This document shows positions 5,832-53,390 of a DNA stretch of 64,000 nucleotides, in pieces. The notes below the pieces were generated by a model. That model was not told the origin of the DNA. It made no database searches and was given only the letters and a program-made list of their open reading frames with translations. How positions within the stretch are numbered: the first letter of the stretch is position 1; each line of letters opens with the position of its first letter. Origin of the DNA: an uncultured Pseudomonadota bacterium (GTDB lineage Bacteria; Pseudomonadota; Alphaproteobacteria; Rs-D84); the NCBI GenBank assembly GCA_902799285.1, contig CADCAA010000001.1:7533-71532 (forward strand), in the 5' to 3' direction. The translations under genes were made by a program, and so were the position numbers.

Positions 5832-6347
5832 GTGTTGTTGTATGTTATTTATAAATCCGATGTTTGTGATGCGGATACGATAAAGATTTTGGATCAACTG
5901 ATTGCCAAGGTTTCTGATAATGCCGATTTGAAAAAGGCAAAAGAGTTGTGTGATAAAGAGGGAAAAACACTTGTGCGTTCACAACGTGAACGGATTCAGG
6001 CGGCAATTCGTGCTGCAATCGAAAAGTATCCCGAGGTGGTTGACCAGATTGATTTATCAGCCGAGATGAAAATTCAATTGTTGGTAAATGGTTTAGTTAA
6101 TACCAGAAATTCTTTGGCCGGTGGCGCGTCGGTTTGGAAAACAGCCGAGGGGAATTTTAATGGTGCGCGGTTGGCATCCGATTCTATTGCTGGTGTGGTG
6201 TTGGGGACCGCCGGTGGTTTAATCACCAGTAATATTGTTAAAAAGAATCAATTGTCGTCTGGGTTCGACAGTGTGATGTGCACAATTGGTGGTCAGACTG
6301 TGGCATCATATGGTGATGAATTCCGGGTCGGAATTACAACAAGATAA
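5832..6347 (+). CDS. Hypothetical protein (helical N-terminal half, Gly-rich hydrophobic C-terminal segment)
   Basis: ORF with a GTG start 10 nt after the previous stop and no recognisable motif. The start codon is uncertain. Confidence 0.35.
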   Translation: MLLYVIYKSDVCDADTIKILDQLIAKVSDNADLKKAKELCDKEGKTLVRSQRERIQAAIRAAIEKYPEVVDQIDLSAEMKIQLLVNGLVNTRNSLAGGASVWKTAEGNFNGARLASDSIAGVVLGTAGGLITSNIVKKNQLSSGFDSVMCTIGGQTVASYGDEFRVGITTR

Positions 6348-6363
6348 GCGCGGGGGGATATCC

Positions 6364-7167
6364 ATGAAAAAATTATTATATATTTTGTGTGCTGTATTGG
6401 TTGCCGGACCCGCTGTGGCGGCATCGCGTGCCGATATTCAGGATAATGCAAAGAATGGTGCGCGTTCGACAATTGGTGTCAGGTATGAACCGGCACGTAA
6501 ATCCAGTTTGAAATTTGACTATGTTGCGCCGGCCGTGACAAATCCTGTCGTCACAACGGAAAATGCGGATCCGGTTGATAATCGTGATGCGGAAAGGGCG
6601 GCCTGTTTATCGAATAATGTTGGTATGGATGCGACATTTGTTTGGGCGTCGCGTTATAGCAATACCGCCAGTTATGCAACCATGGTCGAAGATGTCGAAA
6701 ATCCTGAAAATAATGTTTGCTTTGCGCACGTGAAAATTGCGTCCAGTGACAGTGGTATAAATTTGTCCGATTTTGATAGTAAATATTTTCCCGTGGACGA
6801 GGTTGTCACCTGTGGCAATTGGATAAACAAAGAAAAGTTGGAAAATCGTATTTTGGATGCCAAGAAAACTGCGCGGACTTTGGCGACAATCGGTGGCGCG
6901 GTTGGTGGTGCCGGGATTGGTGTTGGTGCAATGGAATTGTTTGGAAATGAATTGATTGGGGGCGCGGTCCAGGGACAAAAGGCGTTGGATGGTGATGAAT
7001 TGTTTATATCGCAATTAAAAGTATTACGCGATGATGATAAGACGAAATATGAATCAATTAAAAAAACATTAAAACAATTGAAAGAATTGTGTGATGCCAA
7101 CCCATCTATTTCCGATTGCAAAACGGTTAAATATAATAATATATTGACCGCTTTGGGTGAGAAATAA
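6364..7167 (+). CDS. Secreted hypothetical protein, paralog of 35163-35981 (Cys-containing domain + glycine-zipper segment)
   Basis: ATG 6364. Signal peptide MKKLLYILCAVLVAGPAVAA. A long block is conserved with the 35.2-kb gene, including SYATMVEDVE.PENNVCF and TIGGAVGGAGIGVGAMELFGN.LIGGAVQGQK. Confidence 0.6.
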   Translation: MKKLLYILCAVLVAGPAVAASRADIQDNAKNGARSTIGVRYEPARKSSLKFDYVAPAVTNPVVTTENADPVDNRDAERAACLSNNVGMDATFVWASRYSNTASYATMVEDVENPENNVCFAHVKIASSDSGINLSDFDSKYFPVDEVVTCGNWINKEKLENRILDAKKTARTLATIGGAVGGAGIGVGAMELFGNELIGGAVQGQKALDGDELFISQLKVLRDDDKTKYESIKKTLKQLKELCDANPSISDCKTVKYNNILTALGEK

Positions 7168-27667: not shown

Positions 27668-28210
27668 TTATTCGTCCGTTTCTGCGAGTTGTTGGGCCTG
27701 GCTGAAAAATGTGAGTGATTGTCCCAACAGGCCGTCAGTGAATGTTGATGCCAATATGCCATCCGGTTCCGTTGTGGTCAGGTATTGCAGCAATTTATTT
27801 GCGCGACCCAGGTAGTTTTGGACGTTGTGTGCAATGGCACTGTCCAATTTAATGCAACGACGCAATTTTTCCAATGCAAATGGATTTTTTGCATATTCAT
27901 CCATAATTCCGCCCAGTGCGCGCCACAACGGGTGTTCGTTCGTGTTGCGTGGCATTACATCAATTGCGGCCATAATTGGAATCAAATTCTGTAATAAATC
28001 CGAATAGATGATTTCCGCATTTTCAGCCACCGCATTTGTTGCGTTTTTATTTTTTAACATCGATTGAATTTTTACAATAAGGTTATATTGAAATGTTATT
28101 GTTTTTGTGATTTCTGTGATTTTATTGTTCATATTTTTTATATGGACGAACATCACGATAATAGCGATAAAAATCAAAACGGACAAAGACAAGATAACTG
28201 TATTTTGCAT
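27668..28210 (-). CDS. Membrane-anchored helical hypothetical protein, immediately upstream of sufB
   Basis: A single N-terminal TM helix (VILSLSVLIFIAIIVMFV). Its stop codon (27668-27670) lies 2 nt upstream of the sufB ATG (27665). No family recognised. Confidence 0.5.
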   Translation of the reverse strand: MQNTVILSLSVLIFIAIIVMFVHIKNMNNKITEITKTITFQYNLIVKIQSMLKNKNATNAVAENAEIIYSDLLQNLIPIMAAIDVMPRNTNEHPLWRALGGIMDEYAKNPFALEKLRRCIKLDSAIAHNVQNYLGRANKLLQYLTTTEPDGILASTFTDGLLGQSLTFFSQAQQLAETDE

Positions 28211-28293
28211 AATTAAACTCCATGGATTTGTATGTTAGTATAACACACATTTTTGCGATTCGTATGTTTTTGTGTGAAAAGACTTTTTTGGTC

Positions 28294-28322
28294 TTGCACA
28301 GATTCGGTCAAATTGTTATAAT
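28294..28322 (+). promoter_or_regulatory. Sigma70-type promoter of the TcpQ-like/secretin operon
   Basis: TTGCAC (28294-28299), 17-nt spacer, TGtTATAAT (-10 at 28317-28322). The RBS AAAGGA precedes ATG 28356. Confidence 0.6.
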
Positions 28323-28355
28323 AATAGCATCTAGATTGAAAGAAAGGACCTTTAA

Positions 28356-29216
28356 ATGTTTCGTAAGTTTTTGATTTTTGCAATGTTTGCAACGGCGGCT
28401 GGCTATTGCTTTGCTGATTCTTATTTGCCCCAGGTGACCACGTCCGAGGTTTTTGTTAACGGTGACATAATCGAACATCGTGCGACGCAAAATGATGCGC
28501 GTGATGCGGAACCGGCGCCGGTCGCGGAATATGGTAATGTTCCTGCGTGGCCAATTGCGGGTTCGGACGCGGACGTGACTGTAAAGTGCGATGATAAACC
28601 GGGTGTAAAAAATTCTGATAATATTCGTATTGTGTCCAAAATTGGCGATGATATGATTGTTGATAATACGTTTGATTTCAATGGAACTGGTTGGACGGGT
28701 GGTGCAAATATGCTGCACGGGAACCGGATTCCAATGGGATTTGACGACGAATGCGAAAATGGTGCCGAAATGCCTTTGTTGCGTCGCGATATGCTAGAAG
28801 ATGACGGTGGCAGTGTATTGGCTGTATCGCGCAGTGGTCGTAAAAATTGCACAAAGCGTAATGGTGCGGCGGACGCCGTGTTTATGGAAATGGATAACGA
28901 TGCCGATATTGCCGAAATTGGGGTAAAATCTGATGCCCAGGCGCCAAAATCACAACCGGACCAGGTTCGTTCTTGGGTTGTCGCCAATGGCCAGACCTTG
29001 CGTGAGGTTTTACAAAATTGGTGCGACAAAGAGGGCTGGGATTTGGTATGGGCGACATCGCGCGAATACCCGATTGAGGCCAGTGCTGTATTCAAGGGTC
29101 GTTTTACAGATGTTGCGTCTGCGTTGGTGCGTAATTTTGGACGTGCGACACCTGTGCCGTATGCCAAGTTTTACAAGGGAAATTTGGTTTTGGTGATTTC
29201 TACTAACGAAGACTAA
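28356..29216 (+). CDS. TcpQ/PilL-family type IVb pilus secretin-associated protein
   Basis: Signal peptide MFRKFLIFAMFATAAGYCFA. The C-terminal block VRSWVVANGQTLREVLQNWCDKEGWDLVWATSREYPIEASAVFKGRFTDVASALVRNF...YAKFYKGNLVLVIS matches the TcpQ-domain pattern of PilL/TcpQ proteins as recalled from memory. Confidence 0.6.
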   Translation: MFRKFLIFAMFATAAGYCFADSYLPQVTTSEVFVNGDIIEHRATQNDARDAEPAPVAEYGNVPAWPIAGSDADVTVKCDDKPGVKNSDNIRIVSKIGDDMIVDNTFDFNGTGWTGGANMLHGNRIPMGFDDECENGAEMPLLRRDMLEDDGGSVLAVSRSGRKNCTKRNGAADAVFMEMDNDADIAEIGVKSDAQAPKSQPDQVRSWVVANGQTLREVLQNWCDKEGWDLVWATSREYPIEASAVFKGRFTDVASALVRNFGRATPVPYAKFYKGNLVLVISTNED

Positions 29217-29240
29217 ATGCTTGGTGGGAGATATAGAGAT

Positions 29241-30869
29241 ATGAGAAGTTTGTTGAAAAAATTTGTTGTGTTTGCGTTTCTGGGGGCTGTGCTGGCGGGC
29301 TGTGCGCGTGAACAATCGGCCAAGGTTGCGGCGACCGTTGACCAGGATTTCGTTAACGCGTATGATGCGTTTGAAATGGCAAAAAATCCCCGTGCCAAGG
29401 TGGCCAGTGGCGATACGGTATCTGTATCCGAAGGTGTATGGTTGGGGAATAAATCGATATCGCTGGAACATCGCAATAATTTGCCGGCGCAATTTGAAAC
29501 GGATACGGGCATTACGATTTTGCTGGATGAACCTGTGACGTTGCAGGTTTTGGCGAATAATATCAATACTGTGACACATATTCCGGTTAAAATCGACAGG
29601 CAAATTAATTCTGAAAAATTGAAAAAGACAATCAATGTCGCATATACCGGTAAATTGTCCGGATTGCTGTCCCAGGTTGCAACCGATTTAGACCTGTTGT
29701 GGTATTATGATAAAAATTCGATTGTGTTTTATGAAACGGAAACGCGCACGTTTTCATTGTATGCGCTGGGGACCGATATTTCGTACCAGACCGCCGTGTC
29801 GACCGATAATTCCAGTAATGTTGTGCTGGAATCAACAATGAAGGAATGGGACGAGGTTGAAAAGGCCCTGACCGCGATTGTTGGTAATGCGGAAAATTCT
29901 GATTTCACCGTGTCGCGCAGTTTGGGAACAATTACCGCCACGGCACCACCGTCTGTGTTGGCGCGTATCAGTGACTATGTTGATCGGCAAAACAAACGGT
30001 TGTCGCAATTGGTGACAATTGATGTCAAGGTTTTACAGGTATCAATCGCGAACGATTCGGCATTCGGGTTGAATTTGGCGGCGGCGATAAATTCTACATC
30101 TGGGTTGAATATCGTTGCGAACCCCAAGAATAACTTGGCGGCCGTCGGGGCCAGTTCGATGAACATCGCCGTGTTGTCAAACGCGCTGTCTGCGACAACG
30201 GGTGCGACGCACGTCGAAAACGGCAGTGTGGTCAGTGGCGCATATACAAATGATCAAATTATGAACGGATCATTGGCGCGTGGCGCGGGCAGTGCCGGCT
30301 TGATTGAGGCTTTGGCAAAACAGGGCAAGGTGTCTTTGGTGACAAATGTTGGTGTGACGACGCGTAATAATCGTGTTGCCCCGGTCAGCAATATGACATC
30401 AACCGGATATATCAAACGTTTTGAATCTCGCAACTTTACAACGGTCGAATCCAGTACCGTTGACCAGGCGGATTTACAAACTGGTTTTTCAATGCAATTG
30501 TTGCCGAATGTTTTGGAAAATGGCAAAATTTTGTTGTTGTTCAGAATGTCTGTGCGTGAATTGGTGAAAATGTCGACCCAATCGATTGGCGAGGTCACAT
30601 TGCAATTGCCCGAGGTCGAAGAACGCAGTTTTATGCAAGAGGTTATTATGGAATCCGGCCAAATGTTGGTTGTATCTGGGTTTGAAAAGCAAAAGAATAA
30701 TGACACACGTTATGGTTTGGGCGATCCTGACTTTATGGCATTGTCTGGGTCACGTTCTACGACATCCGGCCGTGATGTGTTGGTTGTTATCCTGACGCCC
30801 CAGGTATTAATCAGTCCGTTGGATGCGGAACGCAGTATCCAACAAAATTGGGGAACACCATTGAATTAA
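29241..30869 (+). CDS. Lipoprotein secretin, type IVb pilus class (PilN/TcpC/BfpB-like)
   Basis: ATG 29241 and lipobox AVLAGC. C-terminal secretin domain (GKVSLVTNVGVTTRNNRVAPV...GFSMQLLPNVLENGKILLLFRMSVREL...GQMLVVSGFEKQKNN...RDVLVVILTPQVL). Confidence 0.8.
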   Translation: MRSLLKKFVVFAFLGAVLAGCAREQSAKVAATVDQDFVNAYDAFEMAKNPRAKVASGDTVSVSEGVWLGNKSISLEHRNNLPAQFETDTGITILLDEPVTLQVLANNINTVTHIPVKIDRQINSEKLKKTINVAYTGKLSGLLSQVATDLDLLWYYDKNSIVFYETETRTFSLYALGTDISYQTAVSTDNSSNVVLESTMKEWDEVEKALTAIVGNAENSDFTVSRSLGTITATAPPSVLARISDYVDRQNKRLSQLVTIDVKVLQVSIANDSAFGLNLAAAINSTSGLNIVANPKNNLAAVGASSMNIAVLSNALSATTGATHVENGSVVSGAYTNDQIMNGSLARGAGSAGLIEALAKQGKVSLVTNVGVTTRNNRVAPVSNMTSTGYIKRFESRNFTTVESSTVDQADLQTGFSMQLLPNVLENGKILLLFRMSVRELVKMSTQSIGEVTLQLPEVEERSFMQEVIMESGQMLVVSGFEKQKNNDTRYGLGDPDFMALSGSRSTTSGRDVLVVILTPQVLISPLDAERSIQQNWGTPLN

Positions 30870-30871
30870 AA

Positions 30872-30896
30872 AATCCGCTTCGGCGGATTTTTTTAT
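30872..30896 (+). terminator. Rho-independent terminator after the secretin gene
   Basis: AATCCGC-TTCG-GCGGATT followed by a T7 run. Confidence 0.8.
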
Positions 30897-31371
30897 TGCC
30901 AAGGGTTGTTTCCATTTTCTATACTAATAATCAGAATTCAATCGGAGTTGAATTCGGGGCCTTCAAAAGCCTTATCAAAACCCGGTGCAGGGTTTGCACT
31001 GTTATCCGAAAGCAGGACCGATTCGGTTTTGCGATAAATGACAGATTCAGACTTTGCGCCGACATATATAAAATTTTTCGTTGGCGCAAATTTTTTTGTA
31101 TAACGAAAATTTTGTATATGGATATATCCAATGATTAAACCCCGACGATGGTACCGGTTCGGGGTGCTGTATATCGCAAGGTATATGGGATCACATGGTT
31201 TTGATGATTTTTGAACACCCCGACCGCACTCTTGATTGAGGCGGTATTTTTTGTTTGTTTCGGGATTTTGCCCCGAAAACAATTCCCGCTGTTTAACCGC
31301 CGAAATCGGCGACAAGACAAGGCTTGGTCCTGAAACAAACAAAAAATACCACGAAAGCAAAGGGGAGACAG

Positions 31372-33606
31372 ATGAAAAAGATTTTGTTTGGATTGTTTGC
31401 ATTATTGTTTACCGTGCCGGTGTGGGCGACGAATCCGTGTCAGAATTTATGGAATAAAAATTTGGCTATCAGCGGCGCATACGATGCTAATGGCAGTTAC
31501 ACATATGATGATGCCAACACAACATATTCTGAAATTATGCCCGTGACCGCTGGACAAACAGTTGTTAGTATTACCCCGTTTAGCACTATGCATTTTATTG
31601 TGGTTTATAATGCTTCTGGTGCTGTGATATATCGGCCAGGACCGCAAACAGGCACCAGGGTTACATGGACTATTCCTGATAACGGTGTTGGCATGCGACC
31701 TATATTTGGAACAGCGAGTGCACCTGTGCATCCAGATGATAATATATTGATTTCATTGGATACCACGGCGACGGCGTATACGCCTTATGATCCGCGGTGT
31801 GAGACATGTGACGGGACGGTGATGAACTATACTTCGGCAACCGGAACCGTGACACAGAACGGCACGCCGACACCGACAAACCCGATTGACCCGGTTTTCT
31901 TTCGCCAAGGCGATATGGTCCTGCGCAAAGTCGGTGATGTCGCCGATTCATACGATGCAACAACCGGTAAAATCACACGCCGCGTCGGGGTCAAGGTGCT
32001 GAAGGGAACGGAAGAGTGGACACAAACCACGAGTACTTATAACGGTCTTGTTTATTATCGCGCTCTAAGCATATTGTATAATGCACCGGCAACCGGCGGC
32101 AACAATGCCGAGTTATATCCTGTTATATCTAATGTATTATCGCATAAATCTGGCATATGGTATAATACTAGCGATATGGAAAATGGAATTTCAACTTGTA
32201 ACAATGGTCAATGTATTGCAATGTCTCTTGTTTCTACATATCCAACAACCAGTGAGTTTAAGTCTTGGCTGGCGGGGCAGTATGCCGCGGGGAAACCGGT
32301 TGTGGTTTATTACCAGTTGGCTACACCGGTCGAGGAAGATTGGACGGAAAGTTCATATTGTTATTTGGCAATCAAAATTGCGACCACGCAACATGTGGCG
32401 GGGGCGTTCAGTGGGCTGAATAGTCAGCTGACTGCGGCGATTGCGACGGTGAACAGTGTCGTCACAAATACGATTGACCAGGCGAACCGCATCGCGGCGT
32501 TGGCGACGGGCAAGCAAACCCGCCCGACGGACACTTGCCCACAATATCGGCAATGCCTGCTGGTCGAAGGTACCGACGGCACCCCGCATTGGTACGAAAT
32601 CAACGACCCGTTTTATAACTTCTTTGCCCCGATTTTGGCAACGAACACGAACGGCACATCATCCACCAACGACCCAGGATATCAGCAGTTGGAGTATATC
32701 GAATCCACCGGGACACAGTATATTGATTTGGGTTATTCTATATCTGGAGATATGGGGTTTGATTTGAAGGCACGTTGTTTGGGTGCTGCGTTTGTGTTTG
32801 GAGGTAGATTGTCTTCTACCTCTGGTGTGTCCGGTTTTAACTTTGATGAAGCTGGTAGTAAAATTGGTATACGTATGGGTGGAAACATACTTTATGATGA
32901 GGCTATTTGGTATGATGGTACGGATTATGCAGTAAGTATCAAAAATGGTGATATCGAAGTGAATGGAACGAAAGTATCTAGTTCAACATATGGTAATAAC
33001 TTTTATACAGGACGTGCATATTTGTTTGCGGTTAATGATGGCGGAAATCTCAGTTCTGTAACATTTAATCGTAGTAGAATATATTATTTCAAGATGTACA
33101 ACAATAATATTTTGACGCAAAATTTCATCCCTGTCCGCAGGCTTTCCGACAGTGCGCTCGGTATGTATGACACGGTGAGCAAAACGTTCTTTGCCAATGC
33201 GGGTAGTGGCACATTTACGGCGGGGCCGAACGTGACCAACGATTCCGACGTGCCAAGTGGCCCGACCTGGCGCGTGACGTGGACCAACAACGGCAACAGC
33301 GCAAGCGGCACCGTGTATGGCGAGGGATTGTGTAATAATGTGAGTGGAACTTCTTTGGGCGTTGCAGCAACATCAAGTCAATTAAGTAATGCGGCATGGA
33401 ATCAGAGCAGCGCAAGTTGCTGGTGCCGTGCAACGGGTTTAACAAGTGGTGGCGATACGAATACCACGGATAATGGAGTGTGGGGGTTCCTCGCCACGTA
33501 CAGTTCGGCGGCTGATTGTGCGCGCTACTGTGCGTACGACTGCGCGGACCTCGTTCGTAGCAACCACGAGGGCTTCCGTTCGGTGATATTCAACGCCGTA
33601 AATTAA
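31372..33606 (+). CDS. Secreted modular tail-fibre-like / lectin-like protein (744 aa)
   Basis: ATG 31372 after the RBS AAAGGGGAGA. Signal peptide MKKILFGLFALLFTVPVWA. Modules are described in the findings. It shares several motifs with the 51432-53390 product. Confidence 0.75.
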   Translation: MKKILFGLFALLFTVPVWATNPCQNLWNKNLAISGAYDANGSYTYDDANTTYSEIMPVTAGQTVVSITPFSTMHFIVVYNASGAVIYRPGPQTGTRVTWTIPDNGVGMRPIFGTASAPVHPDDNILISLDTTATAYTPYDPRCETCDGTVMNYTSATGTVTQNGTPTPTNPIDPVFFRQGDMVLRKVGDVADSYDATTGKITRRVGVKVLKGTEEWTQTTSTYNGLVYYRALSILYNAPATGGNNAELYPVISNVLSHKSGIWYNTSDMENGISTCNNGQCIAMSLVSTYPTTSEFKSWLAGQYAAGKPVVVYYQLATPVEEDWTESSYCYLAIKIATTQHVAGAFSGLNSQLTAAIATVNSVVTNTIDQANRIAALATGKQTRPTDTCPQYRQCLLVEGTDGTPHWYEINDPFYNFFAPILATNTNGTSSTNDPGYQQLEYIESTGTQYIDLGYSISGDMGFDLKARCLGAAFVFGGRLSSTSGVSGFNFDEAGSKIGIRMGGNILYDEAIWYDGTDYAVSIKNGDIEVNGTKVSSSTYGNNFYTGRAYLFAVNDGGNLSSVTFNRSRIYYFKMYNNNILTQNFIPVRRLSDSALGMYDTVSKTFFANAGSGTFTAGPNVTNDSDVPSGPTWRVTWTNNGNSASGTVYGEGLCNNVSGTSLGVAATSSQLSNAAWNQSSASCWCRATGLTSGGDTNTTDNGVWGFLATYSSAADCARYCAYDCADLVRSNHEGFRSVIFNAVN

Positions 33607-33667
33607 TCAGTTTTGATTTTATGTGCATGAAATGGGGGCATCGTCCCCCGTTTGTCGCGCCGTCCAC

Positions 33668-33695
33668 AAAAAGGGGCTCCCGGGGCCCCTTTTTG
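33668..33695 (+). terminator. Probable terminator after the fibre-like gene
   Basis: AAAAAGGGGC-TCCCGGG-GCCCCTTTTT. Confidence 0.55.
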
Positions 33696-33834
33696 TCATT
33701 GCGAGGAGCCAAGACCAACTGGGGCATTGCCCCGGGCCGGGCGCGGCGACGTGGCAAACCAGTAAATAAAAAAAGTGTCGGCAAAGCCGACGGCTCTATA
33801 TTGACCTGGGTCCTTCGTTTCACTCAGGATGACA
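33694..33834 (+). repeat. MITE-like GC-rich element with imperfect terminal inverted repeats (TGTCATTGCGAGGAG ... CACTCAGGATGACA)
   Basis: The 5-prime 67 nt align with the reverse complement of 5297-5364. The 3-prime end GGGTCCTTCGTTTCACTCAGGATGACA resembles GGATCCTTGCGTCGTTTC...CCTCAGGATGACA at 5297-5364. G+C is far above the flanking DNA. Confidence 0.5.
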
Positions 33835-33841
33835 TAAAAAA

Positions 33842-33862
33842 ACATCGGACATTTGTCCGATG
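33842..33862. terminator. Bidirectional terminator (serves rpsT on the minus strand)
   Basis: ACATCGGACA-T-TGTCCGATGT perfect 10-bp stem flanked by A-runs and T-runs. Confidence 0.75.
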
Positions 33863-33867
33863 TTTTT

Positions 33868-35162: not shown

Positions 35163-35981
35163 ATGAAAAAATTGGTCTTTTTATTGTGTGTTTTGGCGGT
35201 GTTGCCGGCGTTTGCGGTGGGGCGTTCCACGATTGGTGCGCAAAGGCCTGGGGCACGCGCGATTATTTTGCCAAGTGCGCAATTGCACTCTGCGATTAAA
35301 TCATCGGCCGGGGTGGAAAATGCGACCGGTGTTGTTGCCGTTGTTGATGATGCGCCACAGCCTGCGCCAATTAATCGTGATGCGGAAAGAATGGCCTGTG
35401 TGCGCAATAATATTGGGATGAATAATACCTTTGTTTGGGCGGCCCGAGACAGCAATACGTCCAGTTATGCGACCATGGTCGAAGATGTCGAGCATCCTGA
35501 AAATAATGTGTGTTTCGTATTGGTCGGTATGCGGTCACAAGATTCGCGGATTAACGTGTCCGATATTCAACCGCGATATTTCGAGTGGGGCGAAAATATC
35601 ACCTGTGGTTCTTGGGTTGACGAGGCCAAGATGGAGGCGCGAATACTGGATGCGAAAAAGTCTGCGCGAACATGGGGGACAATCGGTGGCGCGGTTGGTG
35701 GTGCCGGTATCGGTGTTGGCGCAATGGAATTATTTGGAAATAAATTGATCGGTGGTGCAGTTCAGGGACAAAAAAATGAGGATTTGTCGTCTGTGCAATT
35801 AATTGCGTCCCAGGCCGAGGTATTCAAAGATGAAAATAATGCGCGGTATGGGTATTTTGTTGAATTGGTAGAAGAGTTGAAAGAATTCTGTGGTAAATCT
35901 GAAAATGCGAATAATCAGGATTGCAAGAATGATAAATATGCCAATTTAATTAAATGGTATGATGGGTATTACAAAAAATAG
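35163..35981 (+). CDS. Secreted hypothetical protein, paralog of 6364-7167
   Basis: Signal peptide MKKLVFLLCVLAVLPAFA. Over about 125 aa roughly two-thirds of residues are identical by eye to the 6.4-kb gene product, and some DNA stretches are near-identical. Confidence 0.6.
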   Translation: MKKLVFLLCVLAVLPAFAVGRSTIGAQRPGARAIILPSAQLHSAIKSSAGVENATGVVAVVDDAPQPAPINRDAERMACVRNNIGMNNTFVWAARDSNTSSYATMVEDVEHPENNVCFVLVGMRSQDSRINVSDIQPRYFEWGENITCGSWVDEAKMEARILDAKKSARTWGTIGGAVGGAGIGVGAMELFGNKLIGGAVQGQKNEDLSSVQLIASQAEVFKDENNARYGYFVELVEELKEFCGKSENANNQDCKNDKYANLIKWYDGYYKK

Positions 35982-36090: not shown

Positions 36091-37116
36091 ATGTCGGATA
36101 TATTTGATAAATTATTGATTTTACGTTCGCCGGGAATTGGGCCCGTTTCGTATGAAAAATTGGTGCGGCAATTTGGATCGGTCGCCGCGGCGGCGGACAG
36201 TTTGCGTTCGAATACAGAATTGGTGGATTCTGTGCGGCGCGAAATCGATGCGGCAAATGAAATTGGTGCCGTATTTGTATCTGAGGATGATGATTTTTAT
36301 CCGGTGAGTTTGAAAAATGTCAAAGGGCATCCGCCGGTTATTTGCACGCGCGGAAATTTGGAAACTTTGCGGCGGCCGTGTGTCGGTATTGTTGGAACCC
36401 GACATGCGACGGCCACAGGATTGCATTTTGTGGGTAATTTGGCATGTGCATTTGCGGAACATAACGTGGCGGTGGCGTCCGGGATGGCGATTGGCACGGA
36501 TACGGCGGCGCATCGGGGTGCACTGCGTGCGGCGGGTAATGCCCAGACTATTGCGGTTTTGGGCGGCGGTGTGGACTATATTTGGCCGTTGGAAAACGAA
36601 TCGTTGTATTATGAAATTATCGAACGTGGCGTCGTGGTCAGCGAAATGCCAATTGGTTTTGTACCAAAGGGGTCAAACTTTGTGCAACGTAATCGATGGA
36701 TTGCCGGTATCGCCAGTAAGTTGATTTTGAGTGAGGCTGATTTGAATTCGGGCAGTATGCGCACCGCGCGATTCGCAATTGATATGGGGCGCGAATTGTG
36801 GGCTGTGCCGGGGCATCCGGCGGATGCGCGGGCCATGGGACCGAATTCTTTGATTGCGTCGGGTGCGGCAAAACTTTGTTCCGGGGTGCAGGATTTTTTC
36901 GATTCAGATTCGGGTGTGGTGAAAAATGGTTCAAAAAATGTGAAAAATTCAGAATCTGAAAATTTAATTATGGATGCGTTGGGGGTGGTTCCTGTTTCTG
37001 AATCTGTATTGGCAGATGTTGTCAAAAAATCAGTTTCGGAAATCAAACGCGATTTGGTTGTATTGGAATTACGCGGATTGGTGCGAAAAGTCGATGGCGG
37101 TTATGTTCGTGTGTGA
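36091..37116 (+). CDS. dprA: DNA-processing protein DprA (Smf)
   Basis: Rossmann-like core GIVGTRHATATGLHFV...VASGMAIGTDTAAHRGAL and a C-terminal winged-helix-like tail. Confidence 0.85.
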   Translation: MSDIFDKLLILRSPGIGPVSYEKLVRQFGSVAAAADSLRSNTELVDSVRREIDAANEIGAVFVSEDDDFYPVSLKNVKGHPPVICTRGNLETLRRPCVGIVGTRHATATGLHFVGNLACAFAEHNVAVASGMAIGTDTAAHRGALRAAGNAQTIAVLGGGVDYIWPLENESLYYEIIERGVVVSEMPIGFVPKGSNFVQRNRWIAGIASKLILSEADLNSGSMRTARFAIDMGRELWAVPGHPADARAMGPNSLIASGAAKLCSGVQDFFDSDSGVVKNGSKNVKNSESENLIMDALGVVPVSESVLADVVKKSVSEIKRDLVVLELRGLVRKVDGGYVRV

Positions 37117-44278: not shown

Positions 44279-44716
44279 ATGAGACAAGAATCTGGTCGTT
44301 CTATGATTGAAATGTTGGGCGTGCTGGCAATTATGGGTGTTATCACCGTCGGCGCAATCAGTATGATTTCGTATGCTATGCGTATGCAAAAGCAAAGCAC
44401 CGTCAATGACGAGGTTTATCAAATCGTGTTGGGTGTGCGTCAGTTGCTGGGTGAATATGATGATTTTACAAAAATTGATAATTCTACGATATTTACTGCG
44501 TTGGCGATGTCCAATAAAAATCCGTACGGTGGTAATTATACTGTGTCGGTCAATCCATCGAACACGCGTCAATTTATTGTGACGATTGATGGTTTGTCTG
44601 ATTCAGAATGCAAGGCATTGGTGACCAAAAAATGGACTGATTCTGTAAATGGTGCAACAGGTAATTGCGTCAGTTTGGGTCGTGATAATGTTGTGTCCAT
44701 TTTGTATGGAGAATAA
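44279..44716 (+). CDS. Type IV pilin / pseudopilin-like protein
   Basis: Prepilin-type leader MRQESG|RSMIEMLGVLAIMGVITVGAI, with Gly at -1, Glu at +5 and a hydrophobic alpha1-N helix. 145 aa with two late Cys. Confidence 0.65.
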   Translation: MRQESGRSMIEMLGVLAIMGVITVGAISMISYAMRMQKQSTVNDEVYQIVLGVRQLLGEYDDFTKIDNSTIFTALAMSNKNPYGGNYTVSVNPSNTRQFIVTIDGLSDSECKALVTKKWTDSVNGATGNCVSLGRDNVVSILYGE

Positions 44717-50881: not shown

Positions 50882-51370
50882 ATGAAAAAACATTTAGTCT
50901 TTGCCGGTGCCATGGGCGTATTGCTTATGGGTGCGGCAAATGCAGAAGTCGTACAGAATTTTCCGGCGGATACGACACATCCAGAATTTACTGCGGAGTC
51001 TAATCAAGCAAAGCCGTATGCTGTGCGTGAATCCAATATAAAAGCAGCAACAACGAATTATGTTAATAATCGCCTGGACGAAGCAAATGCCGATGTTCAA
51101 GCTTTGGCCGGTACCGCGGCAACAGATGCGGCAACTGTGGATACCAATGCGACTGCGATTGCAGCAATGCAAACGGGCAGACAGGTGCATCCAGGTACGG
51201 ATACGTGCAGTACTGCATCTGATAATGATTTGACCGCTGCTGGAACGGCTGCGGGTGCATCGTATGTTGCGTGTGGTTATATTGTACCAAATGGTACAAA
51301 TGCGGACAGCAATACTGCATCAAATTACAATTGGGTCAAGATTGTGACGGTTCCGTCGTTGGAATCTTAG
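50882..51370 (+). CDS. Small secreted protein with Ala/Thr-rich coiled-coil and Cys pair, upstream partner of the 51.4-kb fibre-like gene
   Basis: Signal peptide MKKHLVFAGAMGVLLMGAANA. AIAAMQTGRQVHPGTDTC resembles the KQTRP..C joint of the two large proteins. Confidence 0.55.
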   Translation: MKKHLVFAGAMGVLLMGAANAEVVQNFPADTTHPEFTAESNQAKPYAVRESNIKAATTNYVNNRLDEANADVQALAGTAATDAATVDTNATAIAAMQTGRQVHPGTDTCSTASDNDLTAAGTAAGASYVACGYIVPNGTNADSNTASNYNWVKIVTVPSLES

Positions 51371-51431
51371 TGCCTGAAAAAAATAAATAGTTGTTCATAT
51401 ATGATTTCTTTGTTCAGTGGGAGAGAACGTT

Positions 51432-53390
51432 ATGTCTAGATTAAAATTCTTGTCATGTGTGATATTATCGTCATTTGTGGCGATATCCGCGGCGTATGCA
51501 GAAGGCGAAGAAGCAATTCCTGCACAGACCGAGCCCGAATCGTTGCAAGATGTTGTTACGGGTAATACACCAACAGAGGCCACAATAACATCGATGGGCG
51601 TTTGTGGCGAGAATTTATTTAATCCCCAATTGTTATCCGAATCGGATTTTAATGTGACTATATCAAATGGGACTATGAGTGCCGTTGGTAAATGGAATCA
51701 ATATGTGAATGCATATGTGTCTGCATATAATTTTGGTTTCAAGCCGGGTAAAAAGTATAAAGTCACATATACCATCAAATGTGGTGATACTGAGACAGGG
51801 ACGCGTTTTTTAGGGTTAAAGTTGGCTGATAATACGGTTGTTGGTCCGACGAATGTGTGTGCTGGTCAAACCGGGGACAAGTTGGTTTCGTATTGGTATG
51901 ACAGCAGTGTGTCGAATCCCGTTGTTGGTATGGTTGCGGGTGGTGAAGCATCAGAGGAAGAGATAACATTGCAAAATGTTATGGTGACCGAGGCTGAAAT
52001 GTCGACGTCGTCGTATATTCCATATCTTGCATGTATCAAAGTTGCGTCAAAGTTGAGTACAGACAATCGTGCCGCGGTTGTGGAAAATCGTTTGAACGAT
52101 GTTCGTTCTGTGATTACCAATTTGATAGGTCAAATGGAGACAAATACCACGAATATTCTGTCACTGAATAATGCAAAACAAACACGTCCGGCGACGGCCT
52201 GTGATGATGGCAAAAAATGTTTGTTGGTCAAAGATACCAATGGCGGGAATCATTGGTATGAAATCCAGGATTGTAACGAGGATGATTTCTTGGATGATGT
52301 TGGGACGATGACGACGTGTACTGATTGTGGTGCTTATGTTGCCGGGATGCGTTATGCCAATGGCGGTAATGGTAAAATGTGTGAGGCTTTATCAAGTACG
52401 GCTGCGGCAGGATGTGATACTAATGAATGGGCAACTTCTTTTGCCAATAATACAAACAATACCAGTGGAATAATTTATGGAACGGCCAGAACGGTTCCAA
52501 TTGCGGAACGTAATGTTGGCACGGTTGTAGAGTTAAGCAGTGCGACTTTGGCAATGTCTGGAAATGTTTGTGTGTGTCAGGCGACCAGATATGTGTCAAA
52601 TGGTGTTGAAACAGTTTTGCCCGAAAGTGATAAGTGGATGGTGGCCAAAGTTATGACAGGTACGTTTACTAATGATAACTGTTTAGAAGTTTGTGCGCAT
52701 GAAGACCAGGGCGTATCTGGTTCTGCAAGTGATTCTGCAAAATATGCGGCATATTTCAAAAATATTAGTAGTTCATGCAGCCCAAATGCACAGAGCACAA
52801 CAACATGTAATTACAATTCGTTCTTGCGGACATTGTATGATGGGTTGGATTCGGGTTTAGTGTCGATTTCCATTTCGTCCCAAGGAACAAATGGATTACG
52901 TGTTTACGGCAGTTGCGGGACAGGTGGTAGTTTTGCATCTGATACAGATATTTGCGGAACATCGGTGACAAATCCGGGCGCGTGGGTTGTTGGTGCGATA
53001 CAAACAGATGCGCTTAATGGAACGCTGTATTCCAGTGTGTACAATGGCGCGTTGGTATATGGTAAATCCAGATGTGTTTCAGATTCATCTGTGTTTGACA
53101 ATGTTGCGGACTTTGATGTCGTAAAGTTGGATAGTGCGCCGGCGGCATCCAATTCTGGGACGGTATGTTTGCACAATATAACGGGATACAAACCGGCCAA
53201 TGGTAGCAAGACTGCAACCAGTGCTGAAAGCCAAAAATACTGGATTGTTAAAAAGTATGCAACGGCCGAAGAATGCAATGCAGAAAATAGTACAAGCGGT
53301 TGCTATGGCGAAGGTTGGACCGAAAGTTATCTGAGGAATGGTAATTTCGATTTCTATGGCAAGGTCGGCGATGCATGTTTGGCTAATTAA
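51432..53390 (+). CDS. Secreted modular tail-fibre-like protein (652 aa), paralog-by-module of 31372-33606
   Basis: ATG 51432 after the RBS GGGAGAG. Signal peptide MSRLKFLSCVILSSFVAISAAYA. Shared motifs CGENLFN, IKVAS, a coiled coil followed by AKQTRPATAC..KKCLLV...HWYEIQD, and two C-terminal CxC...W...Cx3C modules. Confidence 0.7.
   Translation: MSRLKFLSCVILSSFVAISAAYAEGEEAIPAQTEPESLQDVVTGNTPTEATITSMGVCGENLFNPQLLSESDFNVTISNGTMSAVGKWNQYVNAYVSAYNFGFKPGKKYKVTYTIKCGDTETGTRFLGLKLADNTVVGPTNVCAGQTGDKLVSYWYDSSVSNPVVGMVAGGEASEEEITLQNVMVTEAEMSTSSYIPYLACIKVASKLSTDNRAAVVENRLNDVRSVITNLIGQMETNTTNILSLNNAKQTRPATACDDGKKCLLVKDTNGGNHWYEIQDCNEDDFLDDVGTMTTCTDCGAYVAGMRYANGGNGKMCEALSSTAAAGCDTNEWATSFANNTNNTSGIIYGTARTVPIAERNVGTVVELSSATLAMSGNVCVCQATRYVSNGVETVLPESDKWMVAKVMTGTFTNDNCLEVCAHEDQGVSGSASDSAKYAAYFKNISSSCSPNAQSTTTCNYNSFLRTLYDGLDSGLVSISISSQGTNGLRVYGSCGTGGSFASDTDICGTSVTNPGAWVVGAIQTDALNGTLYSSVYNGALVYGKSRCVSDSSVFDNVADFDVVKLDSAPAASNSGTVCLHNITGYKPANGSKTATSAESQKYWIVKKYATAEECNAENSTSGCYGEGWTESYLRNGNFDFYGKVGDACLAN

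What the first reader, a model, noticed from the sequence alone, without database searches (positions are those of the whole stretch)
28294..30896. Stand-alone TcpQ/PilL-like + lipoprotein secretin cassette with no type IVb pilus machinery around it
**Seen in the sequence.**
- A self-contained two-gene unit has its own near-consensus promoter (TTGCAC-N17-TGtTATAAT) and a strong terminator at 30872-30896.
- Gene 1 (28356-29216) is a secreted protein. Its last roughly 85 aa carry the TcpQ-domain pattern (GQTLREVLQNWCDKEGWDLVWATSREYPIEASAVFKGRFTDVASALV...YAKFYKGNLVLVIS).
- Gene 2 (29241-30869) starts 24 nt later. It is a lipobox-bearing secretin with a clear C-terminal secretin domain.

**Established knowledge.** TcpQ-TcpC (Vibrio TCP), BfpG-BfpB (EPEC BFP) and PilL-(PilM)-PilN (R64/ICE thin pilus) pairs normally sit inside 10-14-gene operons. 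Those operons also encode the ATPase, platform protein, prepilin peptidase and pilins.

**What is unusual.** None of those partners occurs within about 28 kb upstream or 33 kb downstream. The only pilin-like gene is an isolated one at 44279-44716. The next gene downstream is a Sec-exported tail-fibre-like protein.

**Inference.** Either the pilus genes are scattered around a reduced genome, or the secretin module has been retained or repurposed as an outer-membrane conduit for other cargo, such as the neighbouring fibre-like proteins. The second possibility would be undescribed.
Basis: partly seen in the sequence, partly recalled or inferred. Interest (0 to 1): 0.72.

Follow-up and report, generated by a model that had tools for sequence, protein, structure and literature searches.

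The report
Type IVb pilus secretin pair, dispersed
These two genes encode the outer-membrane channel (secretin) of a type IVb pilus and its ring-forming partner in a tiny-genome gut bacterium (Candidatus Enterousia); the pair is real and very strongly conserved, but it most likely looks orphaned because this lineage scatters its pilus genes, not because the channel has a new job.

Summary
Gene 1 (28356-29216) ends in a TcpQ/BfpG domain, supported by Pfam, by a sequence match to the BfpG chain of the solved BfpB-BfpG complex (PDB 9u5s), and by Foldseek. Gene 2 (29241-30869) is a lipoprotein secretin that aligns with BfpB and PilN over almost its full length and keeps the motif BfpB uses to bind BfpG.

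The window comes from Candidatus Enterousia (Alphaproteobacteria, order Rs-D84), a gut and rumen lineage with genomes of about 0.75-1 Mb. The pair is found in 290 species. In all 80 loci examined it has the same neighbours, the same 29-nt promoter block and no pilus motor gene within 10 kb. The secretin is more conserved than SufB or DnaA.

The isolated pilin at 44279-44716 folds like type IVb pilins. Its peptidase-site Gly is nearly invariant and its assembly Glu is invariant, which implies a peptidase and motor elsewhere. I could not find them with the tools available.

The downstream fibre-like gene is a variable insertion, absent from most species, so it is not a conserved cargo partner.

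Verdict: a new member of a known kind (type IVb secretin/TcpQ module) with an unusual dispersed layout. Repurposing is unsupported but not excluded. Interest is moderate.

The parts
28293..28322 (+). Promoter block CTTGCACAGATTCGGTCAAATTGTTATAAT: -35 TTGCAC, 17-nt spacer, extended -10 TGtTATAAT. It lies in the 145-bp divergent intergenic region shared with the u180-sufBC operon.
   Evidence: The sequence was read and the scanner hit is. The TTGCAC-N17-TATAAT block occurs upstream of the orthologous gene in 80/80 loci with only scattered spacer substitutions, and once per locus. Promoter function is inferred.
28356..29216 (+). Gene 1: a 286-aa secreted TcpQ/BfpG-family partner of the secretin. 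Layout: signal peptide aa 1-20; variable linker; lineage-specific conserved middle domain aa 62-165 (nt 28539-28850); variable linker; TcpQ (N0-like) domain aa 203-286 (nt 28962-29213).
   Evidence: - Pfam PF10671, E=1.9e-17.
- phmmer to PDB 9u5s chain R (deposited as 'Lipoprotein'; taken to be BfpG from the entry title and PMC12531336), E=3.8e-14.
- Foldseek to 9u5s_R: probability 1.00, TM 0.72 normalised to the target, 34% identity.
- AF2 is confident only for aa 200-286.
- Domain-wise identity across 49 homologues: TcpQ domain 93.9%, middle domain 76%, linkers 11-39%.
29241..30869 (+). Gene 2: a 542-aa PilN/BfpB-type lipoprotein secretin. Features: lipobox LAGC with Cys21 (nt 29301-29303); BfpG-binding-region-like motif aa 58-73, DTVSVSEGVWLGNKSI (nt 29412-29459); secretin domain aa 357-523 (nt 30309-30809).
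   Evidence: - Pfam Secretin, E=5.4e-13.
- TIGR02520, 235.7 bits, below its cutoff.
- phmmer to BfpB (9u5s_A), E=2.9e-36, over aa 32-523.
- 26-27% identity over 95% of the length to plasmid PilN secretins.
- The lipobox Cys and the motif (G/S)DTVS(M/V)SEG(V/I)WLG are kept in 84 homologues, with rare single substitutions in the motif.
- Mean identity of 80.5% across 67 distant species.
30864..30897 (+). Intrinsic terminator: an 11-bp core stem with a UUCG loop and a U-run, starting inside the last codons of gene 2.
   Evidence: RNA fold of -14.4 kcal/mol, z = -2.67 against shuffles.
44279..44716 (+). Type IVb-like major prepilin, MRQESG|RSMIEML. It is a single-gene unit between uvrC and rluD, 13.4 kb downstream of the secretin gene, and is the probable substrate that passes through the secretin.
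   Evidence: - Weak Pfam hits to PilS and N_methyl.
- 800 homologues, the 120 listed at 62-94% identity. Glu+5 and two Cys are invariant; Gly-1 is nearly invariant (at least 90%).
- AF2 pLDDT 82.6.
- The top Foldseek PDB hits (ranks 1-8) are type IVb pilins TcpA or CofA, with PilS at rank 20. No type IVa pilin or type II pseudopilin is among the 50 hits listed.
- The uvrC-pilin-rluD synteny is conserved at 64% identity.
- That it belongs to the same machine as genes 1 and 2 is inferred.

Best explanation
Genes 1 and 2 encode the outer-membrane module of a chromosomal, vertically inherited type IVb-class filament machine in Candidatus Enterousia.

**How it most likely works.**
- The secretin is made as a lipoprotein. 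The Lol pathway takes it to the outer membrane, where it forms a multimeric gated channel. This is inferred by homology; lolA is in the window.
- The TcpQ-domain protein is exported by Sec. Its N0-like C-terminal domain clamps the conserved beta-strand/linker motif near the secretin N-terminus. This would form a stabilising ring like the 17:17 BfpB-BfpG complex (inferred by homology).
- The pair is transcribed as its own unit, from a promoter conserved across the lineage to an intrinsic terminator (inferred).
- The type IVb-like pilin encoded 13 kb away is the likely filament subunit that passes through the channel.

**The missing parts.** The inner-membrane motor (GspE-family ATPase, GspF-family platform, prepilin peptidase) is not within about 82 kb. 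It is inferred to lie elsewhere on the roughly 0.9-Mb chromosome. The cassette is therefore one piece of a dispersed system, not a stand-alone device.

**Function of the filament.** This is not shown. Given the lineage's proposed partner-dependent lifestyle, DNA uptake, attachment to partner cells or piston-like export are the candidates. The unusually high conservation of the pilin argues for a short, constrained (pseudo)pilus rather than an exposed, variable fibre.
For: **Shown: identity of the two proteins.**
- TcpQ domain.
- BfpB/PilN-type lipoprotein secretin, collinear over almost its full length.
- The region that binds BfpG in BfpB is DMVSKTDSIYIGNSSF, with critical residues I46/Y47/I48 (PMC12531336). 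It aligns to DTVSVSEGVWLGNKSI in gene 2 and is nearly invariant in 84 homologues.

**Shown: strong constraint and vertical inheritance.**
- 290 species carry the pair.
- TcpQ is directly followed by the secretin, and u180-sufB lies upstream, in every examined locus that extends that far.
- Mean identity across distant species: secretin 80.5%, SufB 75.3%, DnaA 64.3%.
- The promoter block is found in 80/80 loci.

**Shown: a type IVb-type pilin is co-conserved.**
- Its fold matches TcpA, CofA and PilS.
- Glu+5 is invariant and Gly-1 nearly invariant.
- It shares contig-length fingerprints with the TcpQ hits: 117191, 191361 and 39847.

**Shown: canonical relatives.** Elsewhere the same two genes head contiguous operons of the form TcpQ-secretin-PilO-PilP-ATPase-platform-pilin. 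So the pair is homologous to the first two genes of such an operon.

**Context.** Enterousia genomes are 0.75-1.0 Mb.

**Inferred.** A prepilin with a conserved peptidase site and assembly glutamate, kept under purifying selection in a heavily reduced genome, needs a peptidase and an assembly ATPase.
Against: - No ATPase, platform protein, peptidase, PilO or PilP was found in the window.
- None was found in the flanks beyond it.
- None was found within 10 kb of the pair in 88 related loci, 1.6 Mb in total.
- Targeted hunts for an Enterousia ATPase all failed.
- The one paper describing Rs-D84 gene content reports type IV pili only for a different lineage (UBA9783) and says nothing about them in Rs-D84.
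- The secretin scores below the TIGR02520 equivalog cutoff.
- Gene 1 carries a conserved middle domain that has no counterpart in BfpG or in the plasmid and ICE TcpQ-domain (PilL-type) proteins compared.
- The link between the pilin and the secretin rests only on both being of the type IVb class and co-conserved.
Confidence: 0.8

Rival explanations
1. The molecular module is the same, but the machine works mainly as a type II-like exporter. A short type IVb pseudopilus would push Sec-exported, lineage-specific surface or exo-proteins (such as the variable Cys-rich proteins encoded around the genome) through the secretin. This is analogous to TcpF export by TCP. It is a functional variant of the best explanation, not exclusive of it.
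For: - The pilin is unusually conserved for a surface fibre: 62-94% identity across the lineage.
- Many Sec-signal, Cys-rich lineage-specific proteins are encoded in the window and in the variable slot just downstream of the secretin gene.
- The lineage lacks standard transporters and is thought to depend on partners.
- From general knowledge, type IVb systems can export soluble proteins.
Against: - No cargo gene is conserved next to the cassette. 34 of 55 species have under 900 bp between the secretin gene and rpsT, and the inserts are heterogeneous.
- The same kinds of secreted-protein genes occur at many other places in the window, so the adjacency is not specific.
- No direct evidence of export exists.
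Confidence: 0.2
2. This is a truly orphan secretin. Enterousia has lost the type IVb motor, and the secretin/TcpQ complex (with its extra middle domain) is kept as a motor-independent outer-membrane pore or conduit.
For: - No motor gene was seen in about 82 kb around the cassette, or within 10 kb of it in 88 related loci.
- The published gene-content survey does not mention type IV pili for Rs-D84.
- The secretin is extremely conserved and gene 1 has a lineage-specific domain.
- The lineage lacks recognisable nutrient transporters.
Against: - A type IVb-fold prepilin with a nearly invariant peptidase-site Gly and an invariant assembly Glu is co-conserved. That makes no sense without a peptidase and an ATPase.
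- About 90% of the genome was never examined.
- From general knowledge, known secretins are gated and open only when engaged by an inner-membrane machine.
- Absence from a KEGG-style survey is weak evidence for a divergent type IVb ATPase.
Confidence: 0.07
3. The pair is a decaying remnant of an integrated conjugative plasmid or ICE thin-pilus (pilL-pilN) operon and has no current function.
For: The closest annotated relatives are pilN and TcpQ-domain genes on conjugative plasmids and ICEs.
Against: - Both ORFs are intact in every examined locus, with 78-94% identity for the secretin and 94% for the TcpQ domain.
- The chromosomal synteny is fixed, with no integrase, relaxase or type IV secretion genes nearby.
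- The promoter is conserved.
- Identity to plasmid PilN is only about 27%, so this is not a recent acquisition.
Confidence: 0.01

Closest known systems
BfpB-BfpG secretin complex of the EPEC bundle-forming pilus (PDB 9u5s; PMC12531336)
   Same: - A lipoprotein secretin with an N-terminal domain bearing a partner-binding motif, followed by regions that align along BfpB and a C-terminal secretin domain.
- A partner with an N0-like TcpQ fold.
- Sequence matches of E=2.9e-36 (secretin) and E=3.8e-14 (partner), plus a Foldseek match to BfpG.
- The hydrophobic-aromatic-hydrophobic-Gly-Asn core of the BfpG-binding region is kept: VWLGN against IYIGN.
   Different: - BfpG is about 114-130 aa and has a single domain. 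Gene 1 is 286 aa with an extra conserved middle domain and two variable linkers.
- bfpB and bfpG lie inside a 14-gene plasmid operon. Here the pair is a separate chromosomal unit.
- Stoichiometry and complex formation were not tested here.
PilL/TcpQ-domain protein plus PilN secretin of R64/IncI plasmids, ICEs and other conjugative elements (NCBIfam TIGR02520)
   Same: - Same gene order (TcpQ-domain gene immediately upstream of the lipoprotein secretin) and similar sizes, for example 310 aa plus 543 aa on the Thalassospira plasmid.
- TIGR02520 is the best NCBIfam model.
- 26-27% identity over 95% of the secretin.
   Different: - In those elements the pair is followed directly by pilO2, pilP, the ATPase, the platform gene and the pilin. 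None of these follows here.
- The score is below the equivalog cutoff.
- The N-terminal parts of the TcpQ-domain proteins are unrelated.
- This pair is not on a mobile element.
TcpC-TcpQ of the Vibrio cholerae toxin-coregulated pilus
   Same: - The TcpQ Pfam family is matched.
- The pilin model's best structural matches are TcpA.
- From general knowledge, TcpC is also a lipoprotein secretin.
   Different: - TCP is a contiguous pathogenicity-island operon.
- TcpQ is small.
- TcpA has a long leader and a larger globular domain than the 139-aa mature pilin here.
Contiguous chromosomal type IVb-like operons in other gut and rumen metagenome organisms (loci L217, L143, L125, L209, L141)
   Same: - Pilins share the unusual N-terminus GRSM(I/V)EMLGVLAI.
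- The secretins are lipoproteins with a similar V..(I/V)WLG motif.
- The TcpQ domain is 47% identical to gene 1.
   Different: - All the genes are contiguous: TcpQ-secretin-PilO2-like-512 aa-ATPase-platform-pilin-second ATPase.
- The secretin is only about 30% identical.
- Their host organisms are unknown.
Dispersed type IVa pilus loci (for example Pseudomonas, Neisseria)
   Same: From general knowledge, their pilus genes are split among several chromosomal loci, with the secretin separate from the pilin and the ATPases. This shows that dispersal is compatible with function.
   Different: - They belong to a different class (PilQ with the PilMNOP alignment complex and the PilF/TsaP partners).
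- Their secretin is not a lipoprotein and they have no TcpQ-family partner.

Membership tests
TcpQ/BfpG family (Pfam PF10671), type IVb secretin-binding partner | A TcpQ domain scoring above the Pfam gathering threshold | tested here: met
   63.5 bits against a cutoff of 27, E=1.9e-17, aa 205-282 covering 78 of 80 profile positions.
TcpQ/BfpG family (Pfam PF10671), type IVb secretin-binding partner | An N0-like fold matching a solved family member | tested here: met
   - phmmer to 9u5s_R, E=3.8e-14.
- The AF2 model of aa 200-286 has pLDDT 70-86.
- Foldseek to 9u5s_R: probability 1.00, TM 0.72 normalised to the target, 88 columns, 34% identity. The next hit is a type II secretin N0 domain.
TcpQ/BfpG family (Pfam PF10671), type IVb secretin-binding partner | Encoded next to, and upstream of, a lipoprotein secretin | tested here: met
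   The gap is 24 nt in the window. The secretin lies immediately downstream in all 80 species loci.
TcpQ/BfpG family (Pfam PF10671), type IVb secretin-binding partner | A small protein consisting of essentially the single domain (BfpG about 114-130 aa, TcpQ about 150 aa) | tested here: not met
   Gene 1 is 286 aa. It has an additional conserved middle domain (aa 62-165, 76% identity across the lineage). That domain has no similarity to the plasmid or ICE TcpQ-domain proteins compared and was not confidently modelled. Longer PilL-type members do exist, for example 310 aa.
TcpQ/BfpG family (Pfam PF10671), type IVb secretin-binding partner | Physically binds and stabilises the secretin multimer | not testable with these tools
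   Only indirect evidence is available: the partner-binding motif of the secretin is conserved. No multimer modelling tool was available.
PilN/BfpB/TcpC-type lipoprotein secretins of type IVb pili (NCBIfam TIGR02520) | A C-terminal secretin domain (PF00263) above the gathering threshold | tested here: met
   49.3 bits against 27.5, aa 357-523.
PilN/BfpB/TcpC-type lipoprotein secretins of type IVb pili (NCBIfam TIGR02520) | A score above the TIGR02520 equivalog cutoff | tested here: not met
   235.7 bits against a cutoff of 287.65. It is still by far the best model; MshL scores 90 bits and SctC 29 bits. The protein is therefore a divergent relative of the class, not a curated equivalog.
PilN/BfpB/TcpC-type lipoprotein secretins of type IVb pili (NCBIfam TIGR02520) | An N-terminal lipobox, so the secretin is itself a lipoprotein and needs no pilotin | tested here: met
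   The lipobox is LAGC with Cys21 and Ala at +2. A lipobox-like Cys is kept in all 84 homologues examined. Actual lipidation is inferred.
PilN/BfpB/TcpC-type lipoprotein secretins of type IVb pili (NCBIfam TIGR02520) | An N-terminal domain carrying a BfpG/TcpQ-binding region | tested here: met
   The HMMER alignment places aa 58-73 (DTVSVSEGVWLGNKSI) opposite BfpB DMVSKTDSIYIGNSSF. The functionally critical residues I46/Y47/I48 correspond to V/W/L. The motif is nearly invariant in the lineage. This N-terminal stretch of the alignment is weak on its own (13 bits).
PilN/BfpB/TcpC-type lipoprotein secretins of type IVb pili (NCBIfam TIGR02520) | Collinearity over the full length with characterised members | tested here: met
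   It aligns to BfpB over aa 32-523 in three consecutive stretches, E=2.9e-36. It aligns to plasmid PilN over 95-96% of its length at 26-27% identity.
Complete type IVb pilus system | A type IVb-class major pilin | tested here: met
   - The prepilin is at 44279-44716. Glu+5 is invariant, Gly-1 is nearly invariant, and there is an invariant pair of Cys in the C-terminal part.
- The AF2 model has pLDDT 82.6.
- The best PDB fold matches are TcpA, the ETEC type IVb pilin, CofA and PilS.
- Caveat: the leader is short (6 aa) in most homologues, and the mature protein is small (139 aa) for this class.
Complete type IVb pilus system | A GspE-family assembly ATPase, a GspF-family platform protein and a dedicated prepilin peptidase in the same genome | tested here: inconclusive
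   They are absent from the 64-kb window, from about 18 kb of extra flank, and from within 10 kb of the pair in 88 related loci. The remaining roughly 90% of the genome could not be searched. Hunts by homology were uninformative.
Complete type IVb pilus system | All components encoded in one contiguous 10-14-gene operon | tested here: not met
   The pair and the pilin are separate single units 13.4 kb apart, between housekeeping genes. This layout is conserved across the lineage. Canonical operons are shown for comparison.

The most novel reading that the evidence does not exclude
Candidatus Enterousia has no type IV pilus motor at all. Under this reading, the secretin together with its enlarged TcpQ-family partner, among the most conserved of the proteins compared in these roughly 0.9-Mb genomes, acts as a motor-independent outer-membrane conduit. 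It might take up or exchange material with partner cells in an organism that lacks recognisable nutrient transporters. That would be the first secretin working outside a type II, type III, type IV-pilus or phage-export machine.
Probability: 0.07. Interest if true: 0.85.

Novelty: new member of a known kind. Interest (0 to 1): 0.35.

Why it matters
Candidatus Enterousia and the order Rs-D84 are widespread, uncultured gut and rumen Alphaproteobacteria. Their genomes are about 0.75-1.0 Mb, they lack respiratory chains and most biosynthesis and transporters, and they are thought to live off partner cells.

In such a stripped-down genome, a type IVb secretin that is more conserved than SufB or DnaA, together with a highly conserved pilin, points to this envelope machine as central to the lifestyle. 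Type IV pili play that kind of role in episymbiotic Saccharibacteria (from general knowledge). This gives a concrete target for studying how these bacteria attach, take up DNA or exchange material.

It also shows that type IVb systems, usually seen as compact mobile-element operons, can be domesticated and dispersed around a chromosome. Operon-based detection tools may miss such systems. In the public records looked up for the window's own protein clusters, the secretin is called 'hypothetical protein' or 'Flp pilus assembly secretin CpaC' and the pilin 'hypothetical protein' or 'PulG'.

If the motor turns out to be absent, the finding would become much more important.

Tried and rejected
**Hunting for the motor genes. 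All attempts failed or were uninformative.**
- A Walker-A regex and tblastn with every protein of two canonical type IVb operons, run against the window plus 94 Enterousia loci. Only the TcpQ domain and the secretin matched. The regex GPTGSGKTT would have missed PilQ-type ATPases, but the tblastn would not.
- Look-ups at the window edges gave about 18 kb of extra sequence with no pilus genes.
- A homologue search with a profile of two PilQ ATPases returned only generic or ICE ATPases. No hit shared a contig-length fingerprint with the Enterousia contigs. P0251 turned out to be a marine ICE.
- An exhaustive search of cluster representatives with an 11-sequence PilQ profile gave a top 150 that were all canonical PilQ-type, at 424 bits or more.
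- P0429 is from an IncI/T4BSS-like element.
- Ten isolated representatives are rare singletons with no Enterousia names.
- Filtering the representatives by amino-acid composition did not discriminate.
- A scan of viral contigs for the TcpQ family found nothing.
- Literature searches (RF32, Rs-D84, Enterousia) yielded one gene-content paper, which does not mention pili in Rs-D84. The earlier Enterousia paper is not held.

**Structure and domain checks.**
- The AF2 model of the N-terminal and middle part of gene 1 has low confidence, so it supports no fold inference.

**Readings rejected.**
- 'Cargo partner' for the downstream 760-aa gene: it is absent from most species.
- 'Tail-fibre-like' for that gene: no Pfam or PHROG hit and only a marginal PDB hit.
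- 'Mobile-element remnant': contradicted by conservation and synteny.
- The conserved promoter block as a regulon marker: it occurs once per locus and is not upstream of the pilin.

**Metagenome scan.** A scan for the pilin N-terminal motif found many scattered prepilin-like genes and some contiguous operons in other organisms. It did not find the Enterousia motor.

Full report
**1. What is in the sequence**

Upstream lies TTGCAC-N17-TGtTATAAT at 28294-28322. The scanner lists the same site as TGCACA-16-TATAAT, 10/12 with a TG extension.

Downstream, an 11-bp GC-cored hairpin followed by a U-run folds at -14.4 kcal/mol (z = -2.67). The simple terminator scan missed it because A-U pairs extend the stem into the T-run.

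**2. Identity of the two proteins**

Gene 1:
- It hits Pfam TcpQ (PF10671) at E=1.9e-17 over aa 205-282.
- The same region matches chain R of PDB 9u5s at E=3.8e-14. That chain is deposited as 'Lipoprotein'; from the entry title and PMC12531336 it is BfpG of the BfpB-BfpG complex.
- An AlphaFold2 model built on 50 homologues is confident only for aa 200-286. Its best PDB match is again BfpG (probability 1.00, TM 0.72 normalised to the target, 34% identity), followed distantly by a type II secretin N0 domain.

Gene 2:
- It begins MRSLLKKFVVFAFLGAVLAGC, which is a lipobox.
- It hits Pfam Secretin at E=5.4e-13.
- Its best NCBIfam model is the PilN-family type IVb secretin TIGR02520. The score is 235.7 bits, below the equivalog cutoff of 287.65.
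- It aligns with BfpB (9u5s_A) from aa 32 to 523 at E=2.9e-36.
- It aligns with PilN secretins of conjugative plasmids over 95-96% of its length at 26-27% identity.

The structural paper on BfpB-BfpG (PMC12531336) shows that BfpG binds a short strand-linker-strand region near the N-terminus of BfpB, with I46, Y47 and I48 critical. In the HMMER alignment this region, DMVSKTDSIYIGNSSF, lies opposite DTVSVSEGVWLGNKSI of gene 2. The motif (G/S)DTVS(M/V)SEG(V/I)WLG and the lipobox Cys are kept in the 84 homologues I extracted, with rare single substitutions in the motif.

So the pair is a true homologue of the type IVb secretin/partner module, and the interaction surface appears to be retained.

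**3. Organism and conservation**

The TcpQ-like protein has 1064 homologues. The 120 listed are all full length at 60-100% identity, and the few that carry names are MAG Alphaproteobacteria.

A scan of one genome per species found relatives in 290 species. The best 80 are named Candidatus Enterousia, uncultured Alphaproteobacteria or 'Rickettsiales', from rumen and gut. They include a complete circular MAG of 958,618 bp.

The literature places Enterousia in the order Rs-D84. These genomes are 0.75-1.0 Mb and lack a TCA cycle, respiration, most biosynthesis and standard transporters. A partner-dependent lifestyle has been proposed.

In every one of the 80 loci:
- the TcpQ-like gene is directly followed by the secretin gene;
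- where the contig extends upstream, it is preceded by the same divergent 180-aa gene and sufB.

At 64% protein identity the wider order is unchanged: miaB-gatB-gatA-gatC-ruvX-...-sufC-sufB-u180 | tcpQ-secretin | rpsT-plsY-u272-dprA-dnaA.

Mean identity to the window across 68 distant species:

| Protein | Mean identity |
|---|---|
| Secretin | 80.5% |
| S20 | 78.4% |
| SufB | 75.3% |
| DnaA | 64.3% |
| DprA | 63.5% |

Within gene 1:

| Region | Mean identity |
|---|---|
| TcpQ domain | 93.9% |
| Middle domain, aa 62-165 | 76% |
| The two linkers | 11-39% |

The promoter block TTGCACAGATTCGGTCAAATTGTTATAAT is present upstream of the gene in 80/80 loci. The spacer shows only scattered substitutions, while the adjacent 5' UTR varies freely. 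The block occurs once per locus.

These data rule out a decaying mobile-element remnant. They show very strong purifying selection.

**4. Is it really alone?**

Pfam scans of essentially all long ORFs in the window found only housekeeping and envelope genes:

RecJ, LolA, TatC, LptB/C, ThyA, GatCAB, SufBC, PlsY, DprA, DnaA, GyrB, DnaJ, UvrC, RluD, AsmA, CdaA, DnaN, EF-P, TolB and others.

No GspE-type ATPase, GspF-type platform protein or A24 peptidase was found. About 10 kb beyond the right edge of the window and 8.5 kb beyond the left edge also have none.

tblastn with every protein of two canonical operons (Thalassospira plasmid and Methylovorus pMsip01) was run against the window plus 94 Enterousia loci. 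Only the TcpQ domain and the secretin matched.

By contrast, plasmids, ICEs and some unidentified gut organisms carry the same two genes at the head of a contiguous operon: TcpQ-secretin-PilO-PilP-ATPase-platform-pilin.

**5. The pilin**

The ORF at 44279-44716 begins MRQESG|RSMIEMLGVLAIMG.
- It has 800 homologues, the 120 listed at 62-94% identity.
- Glu+5 and a C-terminal pair of Cys are invariant. Gly-1 is nearly invariant, at 90% or more.
- Its uvrC-pilin-rluD context is conserved at 64% identity.
- The AF2 model (pLDDT 82.6) finds type IVb pilins as its best PDB matches: TcpA, the ETEC type IVb pilin and CofA at ranks 1-8, and PilS at rank 20. No type IVa pilin or type II pseudopilin is among the 50 hits listed.

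Three class-specific type IVb components (secretin, TcpQ partner, pilin) are thus co-conserved but dispersed.

A prepilin whose peptidase-site glycine and assembly glutamate are kept under selection in a roughly 0.9-Mb genome implies a peptidase and an assembly ATPase somewhere. This is an inference, not an observation.

**6. The neighbouring 'fibre' gene**

The 760-aa ORF has a Sec signal. It has no Pfam or PHROG match and only a marginal PDB hit.
- It is absent from the relative at 64% identity.
- Related sequences appear downstream of the secretin in only about 5 of 80 loci.
- The distance from the secretin gene to rpsT ranges from 82 to 4619 bp, and 34 of 55 loci have under 900 bp.
- The larger gaps hold heterogeneous genes: various Sec-signal, Cys-rich lineage-specific proteins, among other ORFs.
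- Similar secreted-protein genes occur at several other places in the window.

This is a variable insertion slot, not a conserved cargo partner.

**7. The unresolved point**

I could not search a whole Enterousia genome.
- Indirect hunts for the lineage's ATPase failed or were uninformative.
- The metagenome scan for the pilin's N-terminal motif did show that prepilin-like genes with GRSM(I/V)EMLGVLAI N-termini are numerous in gut and rumen metagenomes. Many sit singly beside housekeeping genes such as rpoBC or ribosomal protein genes. Their source organisms are unidentified. Contiguous type IVb-like operons with the same pilin N-terminus and a similar secretin motif also exist.

This fits a picture in which dispersal of pilin genes is normal in these small-genome gut bacteria. 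It does not locate the Enterousia motor.

The published survey mentions type IV pili only for another lineage. That is weak evidence, because a divergent type IVb ATPase is easily overlooked in pathway-level annotation.

**8. Verdict**

The best explanation (about 0.8) is that this is the outer-membrane module of a dispersed, chromosomal type IVb-class filament system.

Its biological role is unknown: DNA uptake, partner attachment or piston-like export. The strong conservation of the pilin hints at a short, constrained filament.

The orphan, repurposed-secretin reading remains possible at roughly 0.07 and would be remarkable.

As it stands, the finding is a new, divergent member of a known kind. 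It has an unusual split layout and an extra lineage-specific domain in the TcpQ partner. Interest is moderate, mainly because of the organism's lifestyle and the extreme conservation.

Noticed in passing
window 28293-28322, and the equivalent position in L004 and L015-L094: The promoter block of about 30 nt, including its 17-nt spacer, is almost invariant in 80 species, while the adjacent 5' UTR diverges freely. That is more conservation than a sigma-70 promoter needs. It may overlap an operator. It may also serve the divergent u180-sufBC operon, which shares the 145-bp intergenic region (for example as a Fe-S or iron regulator site).
   Followed up: partly
window 30870-33867; the gap between the secretin gene and rpsT in L015-L094: The interval downstream of the secretin terminator is a variable insertion slot, ranging from 82 to 4619 bp across species. 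Where filled, it holds unrelated genes, many encoding Sec-signal, Cys-rich lineage-specific proteins.
   Followed up: yes
window 31324-33606, 50882-51370, 51417-53390: Three secreted proteins share a segment containing a G(K/R)Q(T/V)(R/H)P...C...C.LLV...G..HWYEI-like motif. The 760-aa and 657-aa proteins are 34% identical over 136 aa. The two large ones also share a C-terminal C(W/V)C(R/Q)AT Cys-rich motif. This is a lineage-specific surface or exoprotein family of unknown function.
   Followed up: partly
window 35163-35981 and 6286-7167: Two paralogous secreted proteins (52% identity) have a C-terminal Gly-rich, glycine-zipper-like segment (TIGGAVGGAGIGVGAMELFGN). The first lies just upstream of dprA in most of the species loci that extend that far.
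   Followed up: no
window 61657-63945: A 762-aa secreted protein with a Gly/Ser-rich N-terminal region. It has about five tandem repeats of roughly 70-90 aa (LAGKQ..L.P.DNGFI.I...G.I......L.DALGI......E......GKL.WRY.DEFE). It has no Pfam or PHROG hit.
   Followed up: no
window 27668-28210 (- strand): A 180-aa protein with one N-terminal transmembrane helix lies 2 nt upstream of sufB and divergent from gene 1. It holds that position in every species locus that extends that far (58-84% identity). Its function is unknown, and it has no Pfam hit.
   Followed up: partly
window 36091-37116: dprA (DNA-processing protein A) sits 5 kb downstream of the secretin gene in conserved synteny. Retention of dprA in a roughly 0.9-Mb genome fits natural DNA uptake, which is a possible role for the pilus system.
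   Followed up: no
L100-L219 (metagenome loci), e.g. L121, L162, L164, L171, L174, L193: Prepilin-like proteins sharing the N-terminus GRSM(I/V)EMLGVLAI(I/M)GV are abundant in gut and rumen metagenomes. They range from about 120 to 490 aa. They often occur as tandem copies or as single genes beside housekeeping genes (rpoBC, ribosomal protein operon). Their source organisms were not identified.
   Followed up: partly
L217, L143, L125, L209, L141, L118, L117: These are contiguous type IVb-like operons from unidentified gut and rumen organisms (GC 0.39-0.52). Gene order: TcpQ lipoprotein, lipoprotein secretin, PilO2-like, a protein of about 510 aa, ATPase, platform, a small transmembrane protein, pilin, second ATPase. 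They have the same pilin N-terminus as Enterousia, and a TcpQ domain 47% identical to gene 1. They may resemble the undispersed ancestral arrangement.
   Followed up: partly
window 12-959 and 901-1914: The recJ gene and a second DHH/DHHA1-family gene overlap by about 60 nt. The same arrangement is seen in related contigs (L013, L014).
   Followed up: no
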